Virus record (IMG/VR): IMGVR_UViG_3300042518_001688
Location: 1-64,000 of that record
DNA: 64,000 bases
Strand: one strand, 5' to 3'
Origin: a virus
Shown: in pieces, positions 1,569 through 21,651 of the stretch
How positions within the stretch are numbered: the stretch's first letter is position 1
Layout: every line of letters begins with the position of its first letter
The notes under the pieces: generated by a model
What the model saw: the letters and a program-made list of their open reading frames with translations, nothing else
Database searches by the model: none
Told to the model about the DNA's origin: nothing
Position numbers and translations under genes: made by a program

Positions 1569-1739
1569 GTGTTGTCGGTGGCGCGTATTCAGGAAGGGGC
1601 AAACATCTGTAGAGGACTAAAAAATCCTTACACGGTGTGCTGTAAACATCTTGCAGTTCAAAATCGTTCTGGCTACTGCAAGAACCACCGTCACCAGTCA
1701 CCTTCCCAAAAGGCGGCTGTGAAAAAAGCCAGAAAGTAA
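1569..1739 (+). CDS. Small Zn-finger-tail protein (not in ORF track; start uncertain)
   Basis: ...TVCCKHLAVQNRSGYCKNHRHQSPSQKAAVKKARK*; same VC-x3-L-x7-YC-x2-H-x4-P spacing as the tails of the 18479 and 19999 ORFs. Confidence 0.6.
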   Translation: MLSVARIQEGANICRGLKNPYTVCCKHLAVQNRSGYCKNHRHQSPSQKAAVKKARK

Positions 1740-5023: not shown

Positions 5024-7095
5024 ATCTGACAAATAGAGAGTATTTGGAGGCAGCGATCGCCTCTATCAAAATCCTCCGCAAACAATCCCCCTTAACGGAA
5101 CAAGAAAGGGGGATTTTGCTTGCATTCCCTGGGGGTGGCATCCTCAAGGAGTGCGGGGTTTTCACCGACGACGATAAACCCCGTTGGTTAGTTGAGGGTC
5201 GGGAGGAGTTGCGATCGCTCCTCACCAATGAAGAATGGGAAGGGATACAGAATAGTGGGATGCAAAACTCCCACTACACCTTACCCCAAATACGTCAAGC
5301 TATGTGGGAGGCACTACTGCCATTAATAGAAGATCCTTGTGTTCTCAGGGTGCTTGATCCTGGATGTGGTACGGCTGGTTTTCTTTGGGATATGCCCAAT
5401 GATGACCGACTCACGTATTACGGCATTGACAAGGACGTTTTGCCTGTTGCGATCGCCCGGAAAGCGATAGGCAAAAGCAAGCACCAACTGGTAAAGCAGG
5501 ATTTCTTGCAACATGATCCCATGTTTCCTTATGGTGCTGCCATCGGCAATGTTCCGTTTGTTAATGGCGTTAACTCAATGGTGTTAGAGGGCAAGAAATT
5601 GGGTATTGCTATTCATGCCCAATTCTTCATTAAGTCCGTCCAGTTACTAGCACCTGGCGCACCTCTAATGTTCCTCACCTCAACTACGACACTTGATGCT
5701 AGGGGTGAGGATTACGTCTGGTTTCGCCGATGGTTGCACAGAAAATGTGAGTTCATCGGTGCGTTGAGATTACCTGCGGATGCCGTTCATCATGGCAACA
5801 CTCAGGTAACAACTGATTTGATTATCCTTCGTCGTCGCAAGGGTAAGGATTGCAATGAACCCGATACTAATTGGATTGAAGTGGTGGAAAGTGATTTGAT
5901 TAATCCCCACTACAACATCCCTGTGTTGTACAACCAATGGTTCATTGATAATCCCTGGTGTTTGTTAGGCGATCGCACTATTTCCAAAGTGCGAGGTAAA
6001 AACGGCAATCCTACCAATTGCCTTGCAATTCAATCTCGTCCAAATTTCGCAAAAGAATTGCGTGAGTCCTTAGCAAAACTCACGCATCAAAACAACGTAT
6101 CTAACAAGGAGAATCATATCATGGCTACATTAATCCCTGCTGATAAGTTCCAGTCTTATTCCGTTTTCTCTTTCATTCTCAGAGAGAATCCAAAACAACA
6201 AGGGGTTGAGATTCATTTCCCCCCTGAGTATGTAGCGGAAAGCGATGCTGAAAAAACCCTGTTAGAGCAAATTAAGTCTAAGGGGCTTGTCGCTGCTAAG
6301 TCTAATCCTTCGTTGTTCTACATCAAGCCCCGAACATCGGAAGAACACGCTCAACTAATGGCATATATGCGTAAGAAGGTAGCAGCTTGTTCTAAGTGGG
6401 GGGCTTGTGAATTAGATGCCGACACACCTGTGGAAGAAATTAAGCCGCGCCGTCGCTGGGGAGGCAACAAGGAAAACAAGCCCGTTGAACCTGTCGCTAC
6501 TCCTACGTCTGCTCCCATTGTGGATGCGATCGCCCAACGACTACAGCCGATGTTCGATGAATTGGCTAGTAAAATCCAAGTTCCTGCTGCTGACCCCAAA
6601 GAGTTGCAGGAGGCACAAGCGAAACTTACTGACTACCTGCACAGGTGGCAGAAGGATCAAGAAACTTTTAAGACGTTAAAATCGGAGGTGGATGTCTTTG
6701 TTGGTCTTAACGAAGAATTGAAAAGAGACAATGAGGATTTGCGATCGCAGCTTGCAGATGTTACCGCAAAAATCGTTGAACTCAATGGCACGGTTCATGA
6801 GTTACAAACGGAATTGAAAGAAACCAGGGAAGCTGATATAGAACTCATGAGGCAAGTTGAATCCTTGCAAGAAAAAAACGAGGGATTGCGATCGCAACTT
6901 GCAGAGTTTGGTGTTGGTGTAACCCAACAACCCGAACCTGACCTGGTTGACGATGAACCTGACTTGCAGGATGAACCTGACTTGCAGGATGAACCTGACT
7001 TGAGTGACGACGAAGACCTCCCCTCTGCATTCCAACCCCAATCATCTGATGACGATGATGAAGATGGCTTCAACATAGCGTTACTGGGGGAGTAA
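5020..7095 (+). CDS. DarB-like N6-adenine methyltransferase fragment, in frame with a coiled-coil/acidic protein (internal start 6121)
   Basis: HYT, VLDPGCGTAGF, GNVPF, RLP, TQVTTDLIIL; internal AAGGAG-ATG at 6121; DEPDLQ repeats. Confidence 0.8.
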   Translation: MNLTNREYLEAAIASIKILRKQSPLTEQERGILLAFPGGGILKECGVFTDDDKPRWLVEGREELRSLLTNEEWEGIQNSGMQNSHYTLPQIRQAMWEALLPLIEDPCVLRVLDPGCGTAGFLWDMPNDDRLTYYGIDKDVLPVAIARKAIGKSKHQLVKQDFLQHDPMFPYGAAIGNVPFVNGVNSMVLEGKKLGIAIHAQFFIKSVQLLAPGAPLMFLTSTTTLDARGEDYVWFRRWLHRKCEFIGALRLPADAVHHGNTQVTTDLIILRRRKGKDCNEPDTNWIEVVESDLINPHYNIPVLYNQWFIDNPWCLLGDRTISKVRGKNGNPTNCLAIQSRPNFAKELRESLAKLTHQNNVSNKENHIMATLIPADKFQSYSVFSFILRENPKQQGVEIHFPPEYVAESDAEKTLLEQIKSKGLVAAKSNPSLFYIKPRTSEEHAQLMAYMRKKVAACSKWGACELDADTPVEEIKPRRRWGGNKENKPVEPVATPTSAPIVDAIAQRLQPMFDELASKIQVPAADPKELQEAQAKLTDYLHRWQKDQETFKTLKSEVDVFVGLNEELKRDNEDLRSQLADVTAKIVELNGTVHELQTELKETREADIELMRQVESLQEKNEGLRSQLAEFGVGVTQQPEPDLVDDEPDLQDEPDLQDEPDLSDDEDLPSAFQPQSSDDDDEDGFNIALLGE
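6952..7003 (+). repeat. 18-bp tandem repeat (DEPDLQ, ~3 copies)
   Basis: GATGAACCTGACTTGCAG units. Confidence 0.85.
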
Positions 7096-18388: not shown

Positions 18389-18478
18389 ATAACTATGCCT
18401 GCCAGCAATAATAATTTATTAATTCAAGATAGCAAAATAGCGATCACACTAGCAATAAATAGGCGATCGCTTAATTAT

Positions 18479-18754
18479 TTATTTTTTCTTCTGATAAGTT
18501 TGTCTCTCTGGCGCGTGATTTTTGTGGGCTTCGCAATATGGATAGATTGCGTCGCTTCTTAAACCAGGATTACACACAAGGCAGTTCATACTAGCTGCTA
18601 TTTCTTCAGGTGGCCAAACCGGAAAACCTGAGTCTGATATTTTCTGTAAAAGTTCAACATGATATGCCCTGATGATTCTGTGGCGGTGAGTAGGGATATC
18701 TTGTTTAAATAACAAAATATAGTCAGAATTGTTGAAATCTAAACGAATATACAT
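18479..18754 (-). CDS. Small protein with C-terminal CxxC...CxxH Zn finger
   Basis: CLVCNPGLRSDAIYPYCEAH. Confidence 0.7.
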   Translation of the reverse strand: MYIRLDFNNSDYILLFKQDIPTHRHRIIRAYHVELLQKISDSGFPVWPPEEIAASMNCLVCNPGLRSDAIYPYCEAHKNHAPERQTYQKKK

Positions 18755-18780
18755 ATTTTAAAGATACGGACACTTTACTA

Positions 18781-18810
18781 TTGACAAGGATAAAATATAA
18801 TGATTTAATA
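18781..18810 (+). promoter_or_regulatory. Sigma70-type promoter
   Basis: TTGACA-17-TTTAAT, followed by a leader hairpin GAGGC...GCCTC. Confidence 0.55.
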
Positions 18811-18877
18811 TAAATGTGAGGCAAGGGAGACAGCCCAAGCCTCAAAAGTAAATCAAGTAAGTTAAGGAAATTATATC

Positions 18878-19393
18878 ATGGCTATCAAACAAGGCAGAAT
18901 TTTAAATAGGTTTGATACTTCCGGTATTAAAACAGTCCGCGTAGATTTTAAGAATCCAGAAGCTCAAAAAGCTGTTAAAAAAGTAGTTGAGTTTCTAAAA
19001 GACAATGCAGAAGAATTTGAGCTAGAACCAGGGGAAACCTATCAGGGTGTGGCAGAAAATTTAGTTTGTGATGTAATCATGGAAGAAAGGTTCATAGTTT
19101 CTTCCATCCCCATACATGAAATAATTGTTAGTGCAGTATTAAAAAATTTAGAAGCTTTGAATGAAGATGAGTCTTACACTTCTGAATCTGAGGTGGCTGA
19201 ACCTGACATAGAAGACGCTTTGCATTACATAGAATCTTTAGCTTTTCAAGGCTCTGAAAGGCAAATTAAATGGGCTAAAGATATAGCTCTAAAAAACATT
19301 GATGATGTTGCAATTGCTTTAAAGAAAAACAAAACAATTCCTGCATCTGCAAAATGGTGGATTGATAATAGAAGCAATATTTCTATTTCATGA
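18878..19393 (+). CDS. Hypothetical protein
   Basis: AAGGA RBS; C-terminal GSERQIKWAKDI...AKWWIDNR motif common in mobile elements. Confidence 0.75.
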   Translation: MAIKQGRILNRFDTSGIKTVRVDFKNPEAQKAVKKVVEFLKDNAEEFELEPGETYQGVAENLVCDVIMEERFIVSSIPIHEIIVSAVLKNLEALNEDESYTSESEVAEPDIEDALHYIESLAFQGSERQIKWAKDIALKNIDDVAIALKKNKTIPASAKWWIDNRSNISIS

Positions 19394-19641
19394 GCAGAAA
19401 ACAGGAGAGCATCACACTCTCCCTTTCACTGGAACACAAAGCCAAACTTGAACAAAAAGCCTTAGAGTTTGGCTGTTTATGGGGCGATCGCCCTAACATT
19501 TCATCGCTACTAAAAGCGATCGCAGATGGTGAACTACTGCTTTCAAAAGCAGACAAACCCGCAAAGCAAAAGCGGGCATTAATCAAGAATGCGATCGCCA
19601 GCATTCAAGACGCACTCACAATTTTACTGGAGTTAATTTAA
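19390..19641 (+). CDS. RHH/WYL-N-terminal-like DNA-binding protein
   Basis: SITLSLSLEHKAKLEQKALEFGCLWGDRPNISSLLKAIADG. Confidence 0.6.
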   Translation: MSRKQESITLSLSLEHKAKLEQKALEFGCLWGDRPNISSLLKAIADGELLLSKADKPAKQKRALIKNAIASIQDALTILLELI

Positions 19642-19909: not shown

Positions 19910-19998
19910 CGATCGCCACAACCAGCCCTCGCTTTCCTTTCCCCTTCACCAAATACCAAGCGATCGCACTAGCAATAAATAGGCGATCGCTTAATTAT

Positions 19999-20403
19999 TT
20001 ATTTTTTCTTCTGATAAGCTTGTCTCTCTGGCGCGTGATTTTTGTGGACTTCGCAATATGGATAAATTGCGTCGCTTCTTAAATTAGAATTGCACACAAG
20101 GCAGTTCATACTAGCTGCTATTTCACTAGCTATGGGCGTATCCGGATCAAATGATGTTGTGACAATAGCTATAGGTTTACCCGCTTCTTTAATGGCTTGC
20201 CATTTACATCTATTCCTGTAGTGGCTAACTATGGGTGCTGCTAACCAGTAGGGTATTCTCCCACAGGATATAATTAGTCCCTTTGTTCCATTAATTTCCG
20301 GGAATGTCATCTGTAGTAAGTCTAGTCTATCTGCTTTTCCCCTGACTTGAATAAATATCCAAGTCTCCAAGTCTTTTTCTACGGTGGTAATTTTTGTAGT
20401 CAT
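19999..20403 (-). CDS. csx3: Degenerate Csx3/Crn3-like domain fused to Zn-finger tail
   Basis: PEINGTKGLIISCGRIPYWL matches Csx3 KGVVISGRGPIWL; YDPR and SH motifs lost. Confidence 0.65.
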   Translation of the reverse strand: MTTKITTVEKDLETWIFIQVRGKADRLDLLQMTFPEINGTKGLIISCGRIPYWLAAPIVSHYRNRCKWQAIKEAGKPIAIVTTSFDPDTPIASEIAASMNCLVCNSNLRSDAIYPYCEVHKNHAPERQAYQKKK

Positions 20404-20431
20404 AATCAACATTTTAGCTAATTTTAAAGTA

Positions 20432-20478
20432 ATTATAGTAGGATGCTTGACAACTTACTATAATCTTTGCTATTGTAG
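20432..20478. promoter_or_regulatory. Divergent promoter region with inverted repeat
   Basis: ATTATAGTA...TACTATAAT inverted repeat bracketing TTGACA. Confidence 0.55.
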
Positions 20479-20515
20479 TTTACATAAGAAAAAGCCAGCC
20501 AAGGAGCTACTACGT

Positions 20516-20818
20516 ATGTCCACTTACAATATTGACTTAGTTGATGGCATTGTAAAAGTTGGCTTTGGTGAGCCAGCGCAAAATGACCAAATCGTTAAAG
20601 ATGCAAAAGCCCTAGCTGATGCCTTAGTATCTTCCGGCGAATTAAATGGTCAATTGGTTAAGATTAGCGGACCCGCTTCTCTTCCTGTTGCTTTTGTTTT
20701 AGCTAAATCTTTTTCTGCGGTTGCTGCGGCGATCGCTTGCTATGATCCCAAATTGCAAAAATATGTGGTTGCTATCAGCCACAATCCTAAATATCAAATT
20801 GGTGATTTAGTTGATTAA
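20516..20818 (+). CDS. csx3: CRISPR-associated Csx3/Crn3-family protein
   Basis: AAGGAG RBS; VKISGPASLPVAFVLA...CYDPKLQKYVVAISHNP. Confidence 0.82.
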   Translation: MSTYNIDLVDGIVKVGFGEPAQNDQIVKDAKALADALVSSGELNGQLVKISGPASLPVAFVLAKSFSAVAAAIACYDPKLQKYVVAISHNPKYQIGDLVD

Positions 20819-20824
20819 TTAGTT

Positions 20825-20873
20825 AAAAGCGATTTGATTTGCTCGTTGCAAAATATCAAGTCGCTTTTTTTTA
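20825..20873 (+). terminator. Intrinsic terminator after csx3
   Basis: AAAAGCGATTTGAT...ATCAAGTCGCTTTTTTTT. Confidence 0.7.
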
Positions 20874-20883
20874 TGAGGATTTT

Positions 20884-21330
20884 ATGCAACAAAAATGCTT
20901 AGAAAAATGGAATAGCAATTTATTTTGGGAGTTAGTTGATCCTCCTAAAATAAATATCCCCAGCCATCTTGGTTGGGTTGAATATGAGGAATACATGAAA
21001 GCCATTCTGGTTAATTGTGTTCCTGGAGAACTCGGTAGATTATTGGTAGACTTCCCTGCTAACTCTACTGAAGATAATAAACTACACACGCATCCAGCAA
21101 GCGATCGCTGTGTAACAGTCATCAAAGGTAGTGGAGATTTTATCTGCTATCGTGACAAAAAAGTTCAAACTTTTCCTTTAGTTCCTGGCGTTCGTGTCTG
21201 GATGCCCAGGGGGATTTTACACACTTTTAAGAGTGGAAATGAAGGGTTGTTAGTTGAGAGCCTACACAATCCCTTTATTCCACTAGATCATCCCAAATGC
21301 TTGATTTATCCAAAGTTAGCAATTGAGTAA
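20884..21330 (+). CDS. Cupin-domain protein
   Basis: LHTHP...VIKGSG...MPRGILHTF. Confidence 0.8.
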   Translation: MQQKCLEKWNSNLFWELVDPPKINIPSHLGWVEYEEYMKAILVNCVPGELGRLLVDFPANSTEDNKLHTHPASDRCVTVIKGSGDFICYRDKKVQTFPLVPGVRVWMPRGILHTFKSGNEGLLVESLHNPFIPLDHPKCLIYPKLAIE

Positions 21331-21651
21331 TTTAATTATGCGTCAAGAGTGGCTAGGTTTGTTAAGAGATTTGCCAGTCTCTATAAATAATTTGGCTGAT
21401 CCTAGTATTCTGCGGCTTTCCACAGAGGCAAAGCTAAACCAGTTGGTGAGCGATCGCCATACTGGGCCAGTTGCCATCATCAAATCAGGCTTACTTCGTG
21501 CGCCCGTTATCCCTCATAATTTTAATTTAAAATCTGTCAGTCTCCTACAAAGACGTACTAGATATTTGGGATGTTTAAAATCCTGGTTGAACTTGTTACA
21601 TAACCAAGGAATTACAGGAAATTTCATGCTATGAGAGATGGAATGTATTTT

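What the first reader, a model, noticed from the sequence alone, without database searches (positions are those of the whole stretch)
19999..20873. Divergent pair of Csx3/Crn3-like genes on a phage with no cas locus: candidate anti-type III CRISPR module
Seen: the + gene (strong RBS, own terminator) is Csx3-like and keeps YDPK and SH, but has no His in the helix segment (LAKSFSAV). The divergent - gene is a second Csx3-like domain (KGLIISCGRIPYWL) lacking YDPR/SH and fused to a Zn-finger tail. An inverted repeat overlaps the shared promoter. Known: Csx3/Crn3 binds and degrades cA4, using H60 and D69 on opposite faces in A. fulgidus; viral cA4 removal (AcrIII-1) defeats type III CRISPR, which is common in filamentous cyanobacteria. 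Inference: the + protein is a cA4 sponge or variant nuclease, and the - protein is a regulator, sensor or hetero-oligomer partner.
Basis: partly seen in the sequence, partly recalled or inferred. Interest (0 to 1): 0.8.

Follow-up and report, generated by a model that had tools for sequence, protein, structure and literature searches.

The report
Cyanophage pair of disarmed Csx3 genes
A virus of filamentous cyanobacteria carries two back-to-back genes copied from the host enzyme that destroys the type III CRISPR alarm molecule, both stripped of their cutting residues, so one probably soaks up the alarm and the other, fused to a zinc finger, probably controls the promoter between them.

Summary
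Both genes pass Pfam's Cas_csx3 threshold. The 83-kb virus record has no Cas10, RAMP or Cas1 gene and no CRISPR array.

The + gene (20516-20818) is about 60% identical to the Csx3 that heads type III operons in Nostocales, including Aphanizomenon. In an alignment of 126 relatives, 119 keep two helix histidines, which align with the Mn-site His57 and His60/61 of A. fulgidus Csx3. The 7 that lack both (Lys, Ala) form one phage clade. The cA4-face residues are kept, and dN/dS is 0.11.

The - gene (19999-20403) is a closer Csx3 homologue (profile against PDB 3WZI, E 4e-16). It lacks all five catalytic residues and ends in a CxxC...CxxH knuckle with a basic tail. This architecture was found only in viral or metagenomic DNA.

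A distant 154-kb phage has the same divergent pair. Its 33-bp inverted repeat has a different sequence but brackets the -35 box with identical geometry.

Best reading: a cA4 sponge or crippled ring nuclease, plus a Csx3-fold, zinc-finger operator-binding regulator.

This scan has noted phage Csx3-like genes before on other DNA. My literature searches found no described viral Crn3.

The parts
19999..20403 (-). Partner gene: a Csx3-fold domain with no catalytic residues, fused to a zinc knuckle and basic tail. It is 134 aa from ATG 20403; an upstream in-frame ATG at 20412 would give 137 aa (P0001).
   Evidence: Pfam PF09620 24.1 bits, GA 21. The family profile A4 matches AfCsx3 3WZI at E 4.3e-16 over profile positions 1-100. 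The Atlas model matches a Crn3/Csx3 cluster at TM 0.84/0.87. All five near homologues start at MTTK. dN/dS is 0.03-0.08.
20002..20127 (-). C-terminal tail of the partner (residues 96-137): C104-x2-C107 ... C120-x2-H123 zinc knuckle, then a Lys-rich end.
   Evidence: The four Cys/His are invariant in 7 of 7 sequences of alignment A2. There is no Pfam or PHROG match. The Atlas gives only weak zinc-ribbon leads, all below 0.9.
20432..20464 (.). 33-bp inverted repeat between the two genes, the candidate operator. Core 11-nt arms are 20432-20442 and 20454-20464, 11 nt apart.
   Evidence: unique in the 83-kb record. It is conserved in L004 and L093, each with a different single mismatch. L005 has a perfect repeat of different sequence with the same 33-bp span, also bracketing the -35 hexamer.
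20447..20476 (+). Promoter-like site for the Csx3 gene: TTGACA, 18-nt spacer, TG-TATTGT. The -35 hexamer lies between the repeat arms.
   Evidence: 10 of 12 matches, TG before the second hexamer. This is a consensus match only, and the region's count is not above its shuffles.
20501..20506 (+). Shine-Dalgarno AAGGAG, nine bases before the ATG.
   Evidence: Read directly.
20516..20818 (+). Phage Csx3/Crn3 homologue (100 aa, P0003). It keeps S51-G52, D77-P78-K79 and H89, but has K64 and A68 where relatives have His.
   Evidence: Pfam PF09620 29.1 bits. 190 homologues were found, most named Csx3, from Nostocales. The residue-level alignment to AfCsx3 is. dN/dS is 0.11 against L004.
20825..20872 (+). 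Intrinsic terminator after the Csx3 gene: hairpin 20825-20868 plus a U run.
   Evidence: -20.1 kcal/mol, z -3.78.

Best explanation
This is a two-gene accessory module of a CL131-like cyanophage, built from two different lineages of the host's type III CRISPR ring nuclease Csx3/Crn3.

(1) The + protein descends from the 101-aa Csx3 that sits directly upstream of cas10 in Nostocales type III operons. It keeps the residues that align with the cA4-binding 'D69 face' of A. fulgidus Csx3 (S51/G52 = S44/G45, D77 = D69, K79 = R71) and H89 (= H80). In this phage clade alone, both helix histidines have been replaced by Lys64 and Ala68. Those histidines align with the Mn-site H57 and H60/61.

In AfCsx3 the H60A mutant is inactive but still binds cA4 and forms fibres. 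I therefore infer that the phage protein binds the cA4 made by host Cas10 and holds it between stacked dimers. It would act as a sponge, or at most a very slow nuclease, and would keep the host's CARF effectors switched off.

(2) The - protein is a more canonical Csx3 fold that has lost all five catalytic residues (H57 to S, H60 to N, D69 to E, R71 to G, H80 to F). It keeps S-x-G-R and carries a CxxC...CxxH zinc knuckle with a basic tail. I infer that it is a dimeric DNA-binding regulator that sits on the 33-bp inverted repeat bracketing the -35 box of the Csx3 promoter, and that its Csx3 domain may make this control respond to cA4.

Shown: the homology, the residue pattern, the phage-clade specificity, purifying selection, the absence of cas genes, and the conserved pair and operator geometry. 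Inferred: cA4 binding, sequestration, DNA binding, ligand response and the anti-CRISPR effect.
For: Homology
- Both proteins pass PF09620.
- Profile A6 finds only AfCsx3 chains among its top five PDB hits (E 0.004-0.012).
- Profile A4 hits AfCsx3 at E 4.3e-16.
- hhalign of A4 against A6 gives 90% probability, E 1.6e-6.
- The Atlas model of the - protein matches a Crn3/Csx3 cluster at TM 0.84/0.87.

Host origin and type III link
- 190 homologues, at about 55-64% identity, mostly Nostocales proteins named Csx3.
- In Aphanizomenon flos-aquae FACHB-1287 the homologue is followed by Cas10/Csm1, Csm2, three RAMP proteins, Cas6 and a Cas_APE2256 CARF protein.
- In 5 of 5 host genomes checked, the homologue lies 1.4-3.2 kb from a Cas10 palm match. 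The contig identity for one of them, L039, is assumed.

Histidine loss
- 119 of 126 relatives have His at both columns. The 7 with K and A are exactly P0003-P0009.
- Those 7 form one clade (support 0.951, stem 0.30 substitutions per site).
- D77, P78 and K79 are kept in 126 of 126 and H89 in 124 of 126.
- The AfCsx3 residue roles and the H60A fibres come from passages of PMC7371418.

Selection
- dN/dS is 0.11 for Csx3 and 0.03-0.08 for the partner.

Phage context
- Portal, DnaB-like, pol III beta and RNR-related genes.
- 84% DNA identity over 1 kb to Aphanizomenon phage CL131, whose host has type III-B and I-D systems (PMC6293099).
- 109 copies of GCGATCGC against 0.21 expected.
- No cas genes or array.

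Regulator
- The divergent pair recurs in L005, a 154-kb virus record estimated 98% complete.
- In both phages a 33-bp inverted repeat starts 15 nt before the -35 hexamer, and an 18-nt spacer follows. The arms match at only 6 of 11 positions. The L005 repeat is expected 0.00 times by chance.
- The Zn-tail architecture was not found in 401 cyanobacterial genomes at E 1e-12. The positive control did find G000 and G002.

Weak hint of expression
- Contigs from RNA libraries of two studies cover parts of both genes.
Against: - No biochemical property was tested.
- The second helix His of the cyanobacterial subfamily is spaced HxxxH. It aligns with AfCsx3 H61, not H60, next to a one-residue gap, so its equivalence to H60 is inferred.
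- The whole subfamily has Pro where AfCsx3 has the cA4-contacting R46, and it scores far below the TIGR02579 cut-off (21.6 against 55.4). Even the host proteins are therefore unproven ring nucleases.
- The Csx15 paper argues that sponging may be futile against type III because much cOA is made (PMC13148439).
- L005's phage Csx3, and those of four other viral contigs, keep both His. Histidine loss is therefore not needed for life on a phage.
- One lineage (L091-L094, near-identical contigs) has the partner and operator but no Csx3. This is a deletion derivative, so the partner can persist, at least briefly, without the + gene.
- The tail has no recognised DNA-binding family.
- In this window each repeat arm contains TATAAT reading outwards. 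The repeat could therefore be two back-to-back -10 boxes, although L005's arms contain none.
- Only two independent lineages support the conserved geometry.
Confidence: 0.5

Rival explanations
1. The + protein is still a working ring nuclease, an AcrIII-like enzyme. Either it uses other residues (for example K64) without metal, or its intact D77/K79 face stacks on the intact His face of host Csx3 dimers to form composite active sites.
For: Mixing the inactive H60A and D69A variants of AfCsx3 restores activity, because the active site is shared between stacked dimers (PMC7371418). The phage protein is about 58-60% identical to the host Csx3 of likely hosts. It keeps D77, K79 and H89. Known viral counter-measures to type III are enzymes (AcrIII-1, AcrIII-2).
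Against: H60A alone is dead in AfCsx3. P0003 has a single histidine in total, so it cannot build its own metal site. Mixed stacks would also produce dead-end interfaces. Other viral Csx3 copies keep both His, so the specific double loss, held under purifying selection, suggests a changed activity.
Confidence: 0.2
2. The two phage proteins work as one hetero-oligomer. Dimers of the - protein and the + protein stack on cA4, and the zinc tail serves something other than operator binding, such as tethering to nucleic acid or to the Cas10 complex.
For: Both are Csx3 folds, and Csx3 stacks head to tail. The divergent pairing is kept in two distant phages.
Against: Together the two proteins still lack H57 and H60, so no composite catalytic site can form. 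The inverted repeat with conserved geometry points to DNA binding at the locus. The L091-L094 lineage keeps the partner without the + gene.
Confidence: 0.1
3. The module is not aimed at CRISPR. The Csx3/STAS-like folds have been reused to bind another ligand, RNA or protein, and they regulate phage genes such as the cupin operon downstream.
For: Crn3 is structurally closer to STAS/anti-sigma antagonist domains than to CARF (review PMC8284326). AfCsx3 also binds RNA. The promoter reads on towards a cupin-like gene, and in relatives a 404-aa Cys-rich gene follows it. An earlier scan note on another phage Csx3-like protein left its role open (e1-5724918).
Against: The + protein's nearest cellular relatives are physically tied to cas10 operons. 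It keeps the residues that align with the cA4 face. The likely hosts carry type III systems with CARF effectors.
Confidence: 0.15
4. These are passenger genes in decay: host-derived Csx3 copies that are losing function in a rearranging accessory region.
For: The locus is clearly in flux. The window has a 165-nt duplication that creates a chimeric ORF and a 404-aa neighbour truncated to 61 codons. A Csx3 deletion has occurred in L091-L094.
Against: Frames are intact in all 7 clade members, which carry the same K/A replacements. dN/dS is 0.11 and 0.03-0.08. The gene has its own RBS, promoter-like site and terminator. Outside the three possible source runs, the stretch stands in lake and freshwater metagenomes of 6 further studies that hold at least half of its sampled words.
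Confidence: 0.05

Closest known systems
Crn3/Csx3 ring nuclease of Archaeoglobus fulgidus (AF1864; PDB 3WZG, 3WZH, 3WZI, 6VJG, 6YUD; Pfam PF09620, TIGR02579)
   Same: Both phage proteins are sequence homologues. The + protein keeps equivalents of S44, G45, D69, R71 (as Lys) and H80. The - protein keeps S44, G45 and R46, and its Atlas model has the Crn3/Csx3 fold.
   Different: Neither has the H57/H60 pair. The - protein also lacks D69, R71 and H80 and carries a zinc-knuckle tail. Neither reaches the TIGR02579 cut-off. Both are on a phage with no cas genes.
The 101-aa Csx3 subfamily that heads type III (Csm) operons of Nostocales, for example in Aphanizomenon flos-aquae FACHB-1287 (L048)
   Same: About 58-62% identity over the full length to the + protein, with the same length and the same G-P-x-S, D-P-K and S/T-H motifs.
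   Different: The cellular proteins have His at both helix positions (119 of 126 sequences in A6, five of which are from other viral contigs), and they sit next to cas10. The phage clade has Lys and Ala and no cas neighbour.
Viral ring nucleases AcrIII-1 (DUF1874) and AcrIII-2 (viral SAVED)
   Same: The proposed role is the same: a phage-encoded protein that removes cA4 to defeat type III CRISPR signalling. AcrIII-2 is likewise a defence domain scavenged by a virus, with a composite head-to-tail site (PMC12751052).
   Different: The folds are unrelated and both are true enzymes. The protein here lacks the catalytic histidines of its own family. Pfam gave no DUF1874 or SAVED match.
Csx15 (a cA4-binding, filament-forming, slow or non-cleaving 'sponge-like' ring nuclease family) and the phage sponges Acb2, Tad1 and Tad2
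   Same: The proposed mechanism is the same: sequestering a cyclic nucleotide by stoichiometric binding. Csx15 does this through head-to-tail oligomers reminiscent of Csx3 (PMC13148439).
   Different: Csx15 is a cellular CARF protein that its authors did not find in phages. Acb2 and Tad1/2 are unrelated folds that act on CBASS and Thoeris signals.
Csa3 (CARF-wHTH, cA4-responsive transcription factor) and Aca repressors of anti-CRISPR operons
   Same: The proposed logic for the - protein is the same: a cOA-sensor fold fused to a DNA-binding module (Csa3; abstract of PMC8699464), and a small repressor acting on an inverted repeat in the promoter of a counter-defence gene. The Aca comparison is from my own knowledge, not from a call.
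   Different: There is no HTH. The sensor is a Csx3 fold rather than CARF, the DNA-binding part would be a 40-aa zinc knuckle of no known family, and the gene is divergent rather than downstream.
Cyanobacterial Csx3-AAA+ fusions
   Same: This is another case of a Csx3 domain fused to a second module. The N domain of the - protein matches these proteins and stand-alone canonical Csx3 in 79 of 301 Nostocales genomes. The family is mentioned in PMC8284326.
   Different: Those fusions carry a P-loop ATPase, keep HxxH/YDPR or close variants, and are cellular. No Zn-knuckle tail was found in the cellular genomes searched.

Membership tests
Csx3/Crn3 (Pfam PF09620), + protein | Scores above Pfam's gathering threshold | tested here: met
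   29.1 bits against 21, residues 47-99. The six-frame search of the record finds the same place.
Csx3/Crn3 (Pfam PF09620), - protein | Scores above Pfam's gathering threshold | tested here: met
   24.1 bits against 21, residues 29-77. Family profile A4 against AfCsx3 in the PDB gives E 4.3e-16 over the whole domain.
Crn3/Csx3 equivalog (NCBIfam TIGR02579) | Scores above the curated equivalog cut-off (55.4 bits) | tested here: not met
   21.6 bits (+ protein) and 18.0 bits (- protein). Neither should be named an equivalog, that is, a working Crn3.
Crn3/Csx3 ring nuclease (enzyme) | His face: H57 and H60 (Mn site). H60A is inactive in AfCsx3. | tested here: not met
   The + protein has K64 and A68, where 119 of 126 relatives have His. 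The - protein has S63/H64 and N67 at these positions. Residue roles are from PMC7371418.
Crn3/Csx3 ring nuclease (enzyme) | D69 and R71 on the cA4 face; H80 | tested here: inconclusive
   The + protein has D77, K79 (Arg to Lys in all 126 sequences) and H89, so these are met by alignment. The - protein has E, G and F, so they are not met. The two proteins give opposite answers.
Crn3/Csx3 ring nuclease (enzyme) | Csx3 fold and head-to-tail dimer stacking | tested here: inconclusive
   The Atlas's own model of the - protein (pTM 0.68) matches a Crn3/Csx3 cluster at TM 0.84/0.87 over 96 residues.
Crn3/Csx3 ring nuclease (enzyme) | Binds and cleaves cA4 with Mn2+ | not testable with these tools
   This needs binding and TLC/HPLC cleavage assays.
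CRISPR-associated (type III accessory) gene | Encoded next to a cas10 / type III locus | tested here: not met
   The 83-kb record has no Cas10 palm, RAMP or Cas1 match and no array. The cellular homologues of the + protein do meet this criterion.
AcrIII-1 (DUF1874) / AcrIII-2 (SAVED) viral ring nucleases | DUF1874 or SAVED domain | tested here: not met
   A Pfam scan at E up to 1 gave only PF09620 for both proteins. The likeness is in proposed role only.
Csa3-type or Aca-type regulators | A helix-turn-helix DNA-binding domain | tested here: not met
   The - protein has no HTH family in Pfam, NCBIfam or PHROGs. Its tail is a Cys2-Cys-His knuckle with only weak zinc-ribbon look-alikes.
Operator-binding autoregulator (functional class) | A palindromic site in its own or the divergent promoter, conserved with the gene | tested here: met
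   A 33-bp inverted repeat brackets the -35 hexamer in both the window and L005, with the same offsets and different arm sequences. It is unique in the record. Actual binding is untested.

The most novel reading that the evidence does not exclude
This could be a self-sensing, inducible anti-type III device made entirely from disarmed copies of the host's own off-switch. A dead-Csx3 zinc-finger repressor would detect cA4 and release the promoter of a histidine-less Csx3, which then polymerises on cA4 as a stoichiometric sponge. If so, it would be the first Crn3-derived viral anti-CRISPR, the first cA4 sponge used by a phage against type III CRISPR, and the first phage transcription factor that responds to cyclic oligoadenylate.
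Probability: 0.2. Interest if true: 0.85.

Novelty: new variant of a known kind. Interest (0 to 1): 0.66.

Why it matters
Described viral answers to type III CRISPR signalling are enzymes: AcrIII-1, AcrIII-2 and a few Csx16/Csx20 copies. A survey of 28,114 phage genomes reported no Crn3 (PMC12409355). tblastn of the + protein, of the - protein and of one histidine-intact viral Csx3 (from L007) found nothing in 50,697 GenBank phage records.

Here a phage lineage of bloom-forming cyanobacteria carries a Crn3 copy with a natural, clade-wide loss of the metal-binding histidines. In vitro, the equivalent single change (H60A) turns AfCsx3 into a cA4-binding, fibre-forming, inactive protein. This gives a direct test of whether sponging can work against type III systems, which the field currently doubts.

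The partner would add a new sensor-to-DNA architecture, Csx3 fold plus zinc knuckle, found so far only in viral or metagenomic DNA. Its operator would be a ready-made cA4 reporter if the ligand response holds.

The hosts are Aphanizomenon/Dolichospermum-type bloom formers, so the module also bears on phage-host dynamics in lakes.

Tried and rejected
- **P0003 alone against the PDB.** phmmer gave only three chance-level hits (E 0.49 or worse) and no Csx3. The profile A6 was needed to reach AfCsx3.
- **Partner-family contexts.** Viral scans with P0134 and P0131 found nothing. The metagenome scan with A2 gave only two near-identical loci. Viral scans with A5 and A2 gave the same four contigs. The contexts of most of the 19 family representatives are therefore unknown. 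Cluster look-ups gave only sources and contig lengths.
- **Zinc tail.** No Pfam, NCBIfam or PHROG family matched. All Atlas feature scores were below 0.9 and the structure rows cover short stretches, so these are leads only.
- **Idea that the partner is independent of Csx3, based on L091-L094.** I downgraded this. Those four contigs differ by 0-2 nt in the partner gene and are a single recent deletion derivative.
- **Idea that P0002 is a second functional zinc-finger protein.** I rejected this as the main reading. It is the first ~50 aa of a 220-aa phage family (phrog_23655) joined to a 165-nt duplicate of the partner's 3' end.
- **Catalytic complementation between the two phage proteins.** I rejected this on residues, because neither supplies H57 or H60.
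- **Transcription evidence.** RNA-library contigs cover 20515-20750 (X15), and 20148-20300 plus 20594-20747 (X18). The tool states that this does not show transcription. Parts without cover say nothing.
- **CARF check on the record.** The PF09651 search was empty, but its control also rang nowhere, so it is uninformative.
- **Promoter scans.** The counts are not above shuffles.
- **Papers.** The phage ring-nuclease table of PMC12409355 (its supplement S1) could bear on the claim that no viral Crn3 is described. 'Csx3' plus 'cyanophage' found no paper. The searches surfaced no viral Crn3. For all papers I read only search listings and 'find' passages, not whole texts.
Full report
**What is there**

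The window is the first 64 kb of an 83,408-bp IMG/VR virus record. The record is linear, and CheckV estimates it at 71% complete.

It is a tailed-phage genome:
- It has a portal gene, a 446-aa gene that reads as a DnaB-type helicase, a pol III beta clamp, an RNR-related gene, an HU gene and helicases.
- Its only DNA match among 50,697 GenBank phages is 84% identity over about 1 kb (window 18604-19639) to Aphanizomenon phage vB_AphaS-CL131.
- GCGATCGC occurs 109 times against 0.21 expected. I recall this palindrome as the cyanobacterial HIP1 signature.

The finding's two genes are real open frames.
- The + gene runs from 20516 to 20818 and encodes 100 aa (P0003). AAGGAG lies at 20501-20506. A hairpin at 20825-20868 (-20.1 kcal/mol, z -3.78) with a U run follows it.
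- The - gene runs from 19999 to 20412 and encodes 137 aa (P0001). Its five near homologues all begin at MTTK, so ATG 20403 (134 aa) is the likelier start.

**Both are Csx3 homologues, from two different lineages**

Pfam Cas_csx3 is passed by both: 29.1 and 24.1 bits against a gathering score of 21. Neither reaches the NCBIfam equivalog cut-off: 21.6 and 18.0 bits against 55.4.

*The + protein.* P0003 has 190 relatives in the 5.8-billion-protein search.
- Six are 82-98% identical and sit on contigs of up to 116 kb, close to CL131's 112.8 kb.
- The rest are about 55-64% identical proteins of about 101 aa, mostly named Csx3, from Nodularia, Anabaena, Sphaerospermopsis, Nostoc and Calothrix.
- A scan of species-representative genomes found 170 relatives and kept 80, one of them from Aphanizomenon flos-aquae FACHB-1287.
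- In that genome the homologue is followed 243 nt later by Cas10 (Cas10-Cmr2_palm2 plus Csm1_B), then Csm2, three RAMP proteins, Cas6, a Cas_APE2256 CARF protein and a weak HEPN match.
- In 5 of 5 host genomes checked, a Cas10 palm match lies 1.4-3.2 kb from the Csx3 homologue. For L039 I assumed that the contig numbers correspond.

*The - protein.* P0001 has only five near relatives. A profile search of 1.84 billion representatives gave 19 proteins at E up to 0.001. The family profile (A4) matches solved AfCsx3 (3WZI) at E 4.3e-16 across the whole Csx3 domain. That is much stronger than the + family's profile, which scores E 0.004-0.012. The two profiles align with each other at 90% probability, E 1.6e-6. 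The ESM Atlas's own model of P0001 (pTM 0.68) superposes on a Crn3/Csx3 cluster at TM 0.84/0.87 over 96 residues.

In 79 of 301 Nostocales genomes, the N domain of the - family matches canonical Csx3 (HxxH, YDPR) and Csx3-AAA fusions. None of these matches runs through the zinc knuckle. There is one tail-only hit at E 2.6e-4.

**Catalytic residues**

Passages of PMC7371418 give the roles of residues in AfCsx3:
- H57, H60 and H80 lie on one face; H57 and H60 are the probable Mn ligands.
- D69 and R71, together with S44, G45, R46 and I49, lie on the cA4 face.
- H60A and D69A are each inactive, but mixing them restores activity.
- H60A bound to cA4 forms fibres.

The HMMER alignment of profile A6 to AfCsx3 gives these correspondences for P0003:

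| P0003 | AfCsx3 |
|---|---|
| S51, G52 | S44, G45 |
| K64 | H57 |
| A68 | H61, next to H60, beside a one-residue gap |
| D77 | D69 |
| K79 | R71 |
| H89 | H80 |

Alignment A6 holds 126 sequences: P0003, the 120 listed hits and five viral-contig translations. 119 have His at both helix columns. The 7 with Lys and Ala are exactly P0003-P0009. D77, P78 and K79 are present in 126 of 126, and H89 in 124 of 126. These seven form one clade (support 0.951) on a stem of 0.30 substitutions per site, against a median branch of 0.09. P0003 contains one histidine in total. Between the window and L004, the gene differs at 17 nucleotides but only 4 residues, giving dN/dS 0.11.

For P0001, one search aligns S63/H64 with H57/K58, N67 with H60, E with D69, G with R71, and F with H80. 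S49, G51 and R52 match S44, G45 and R46. More distant family members keep YDP but not R71, H60 or H80.

By AfCsx3 criteria, therefore, neither protein can be a normal ring nuclease, and together they still lack the histidine pair.

**Context and conservation of the pair**

The record has no Cas10 palm (0 of 5 viral records), no RAMP, no Cas1 and no array.

The pair, its repeat and its promoter recur at 96-98% identity in L004/L090. More tellingly, they recur in L005, a 154-kb virus record estimated 98% complete. There a Csx3 of 57% identity, which keeps both His and has an extra 125-aa C-terminal region with no Pfam match, faces a partner-family gene.

The intergenic architecture is the same in both:

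| Feature | Window | L005 |
|---|---|---|
| Inverted repeat | 20432-20464 (33 bp) | 5917-5949 (33 bp, perfect 11-nt arms) |
| -35 hexamer | TTGACA, starts 15 nt after the repeat begins | TAGACA, starts 15 nt after the repeat begins |
| Spacer | 18 nt | 18 nt |
| -10 hexamer | TATTGT | TATATT |

The arms agree at only 6 of 11 positions. The window's repeat is unique in the 83 kb. L005's repeat is expected 0.00 times by chance.

With a profile of the closer partner relatives (A5), no match at E 1e-12 was found in 401 cyanobacterial genomes. The same search finds both virus records.

**A locus in flux**

- In L004 the Csx3 gene is followed by a 59-aa basic Cys-rich ORF, then a terminator and a cupin-like gene.
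- In L091-L094, which are near-identical contigs, the promoter is joined to the last ~20 nt of that small ORF. Csx3 has therefore been deleted while the partner and operator remain.
- In the window the small ORF is absent. A 404-aa neighbour is cut to 61 codons. A 165-nt copy of the partner's 3' end is fused to the first ~50 codons of a phrog_23655-type gene, giving the chimeric P0002.

Such cassette turnover is typical of phage accessory and counter-defence regions. This is my own judgement, not a tool result.

**Mechanism**

The best-supported reading has two parts.

First, the + protein binds the cA4 made by the host's Cas10 on its conserved D77/K79 face. Lacking the metal site, it retains cA4 between stacked dimers, as the AfCsx3 H60A mutant does. 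It would be a sponge or a very slow nuclease that keeps CARF effectors off.

Second, the - protein is a dimeric Csx3-fold sensor whose zinc knuckle and basic tail bind the palindrome over the -35 box. It would control the Csx3 promoter and probably its own, possibly in response to cA4.

The steps shown are homology, the residue pattern, clade specificity, purifying selection (partner dN/dS 0.03-0.08), the absence of cas genes and the conserved architecture. All ligand, DNA-binding and anti-CRISPR steps are inferred.

Points against this reading:
- The HxxxH spacing makes the equivalence to H60 indirect.
- The subfamily has Pro at the R46 position.
- Sponging type III signals has been argued to be ineffective (PMC13148439).
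- Other viral Csx3 copies keep their histidines.
- The tail belongs to no known DNA-binding family.
- In the window, but not in L005, each arm contains an outward TATAAT, so the arms could be -10 boxes.
- Only two independent lineages support the geometry.

**Comparison with what is known, and novelty**

The proteins belong to the Csx3 superfamily (Pfam) but fail the enzyme's defining residues and the equivalog cut-off. I therefore file them as Csx3-derived, not as Crn3 ring nucleases.

Functionally, the + protein would resemble AcrIII-1 and AcrIII-2 in purpose, and Csx15 or Acb2 in mechanism. The - protein would resemble Csa3 or Aca proteins in logic, but with a different sensor fold and no HTH.

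On the literature:
- Hoikkala et al. report only AcrIII-1 (36), Csx20 (4) and Csx16 (2) among 28,114 phage genomes.
- The AcrIII-2 paper says only one viral ring nuclease was known before it.
- My searches found no paper holding both 'Csx3' and 'cyanophage', and no viral Crn3.
- Supplements were closed, and I read only passages.

This scan's own notes list 15 findings of phage Csx3-like genes in at least 12 genomes. One is a cyanophage Csx3 without catalytic histidines, and another is a Csx3-fold protein with a DNA-binding tail. Those notes are unchecked leads. They show that the theme recurs and is not unique to this window.

**Ecology and expression**

Leaving out three possible source samples, runs from 6 further studies of lake and freshwater metagenomes hold at least half of the stretch's sampled words. 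Contigs from two RNA libraries cover parts of both genes. The tool warns that this is not proof of transcription.

**Verdict**

The finding is a new variant of a known kind. It is worth bench work because a few simple assays would decide between the sponge, enzyme and regulator readings.

Noticed in passing
window 18447-18610 and 19967-20130; ORF 18479-18754 (-): A direct repeat of about 165 nt at about 95% identity copies the partner gene's zinc-finger tail and its 3' flank, including two GCGATCGC sites. The upstream copy is fused to the first ~50 codons of a phrog_23655-type gene (220-aa family). This gives a chimeric 91-aa ORF (P0002) that looks like a rearrangement scar. The same chimera is on record on 5 contigs, the longest 105 kb.
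   Followed up: partly
window 21323-21634; L004 7032-8246: The gene after the cupin-like gene encodes a 404-aa Cys-rich protein in relatives, with no Pfam or PHROG match. In this window only its first 61 codons survive, at 92% identity; the rest is deleted.
   Followed up: partly
L004 6376-6555; L093 4855-4925: In L004 a 59-aa very basic, Cys-rich ORF follows Csx3 before the terminator. It has no Pfam match and is absent from the window's record. L091-L094 keep only its last ~20 nt, joined to the promoter, which marks a clean deletion of Csx3 plus this ORF.
   Followed up: partly
L005 5467-5889 (-) and 6001-6681 (+): The distant phage's Csx3 keeps both histidines and carries an extra 125-aa C-terminal region with no Pfam family. 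Its partner gene has no in-frame ATG before the first strand of the domain. By my reading of the sequence, the ATG that would give the family's usual MI... start lies in another frame. This could be a rare start codon, a frameshift or an assembly error.
   Followed up: no
L006, L007, L008, L009 (IMG/VR contigs of 71-156 kb): Four more viral contigs carry stand-alone Csx3 homologues at 40-54% identity, with both helix histidines intact. They lie among phage-like genes. No partner-family gene was found beside them in the 12-kb loci. The whole records of L006 and L007 have no Cas10 palm match; L008 and L009 were not checked for it. One of these proteins has no tblastn match in 50,697 GenBank phages.
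   Followed up: partly
window 1569-1739 (+): A 56-aa ORF has Cys/His spacing like the partner's tail and a Lys/Arg-rich end. It matches DUF5763 weakly (E 0.0048, below the cut-off). The lead came from scan note e1-6129231. Whether it is a gene is open.
   Followed up: partly
L013, L017, L052, L056, L081, L083 (genome contigs): Cyanobacterial-type 101-aa Csx3 genes, 56-62% identical to the phage protein, sit on contigs binned as Saccharibacteria, Patescibacteria, Paceibacterota, Taylorbacteria, Gracilibacteria and Portnoybacteria MAGs. These are probably mis-binned cyanobacterial or phage contigs.
   Followed up: no
L039 5657-6700 (-): In Sphaerospermopsis aphanizomenoides, a 348-aa open frame about 3.3 kb from the 101-aa Csx3 matches the partner-family profile at E 5.5e-13. 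By its length it is probably a Csx3-AAA type fusion. I did not check this.
   Followed up: no
window, whole: GCGATCGC occurs 109 times in 64 kb against 0.21 expected. Copies lie inside the Csx3 gene (20729) and flank the partner gene's 3' hairpin (19960, 19983).
   Followed up: no
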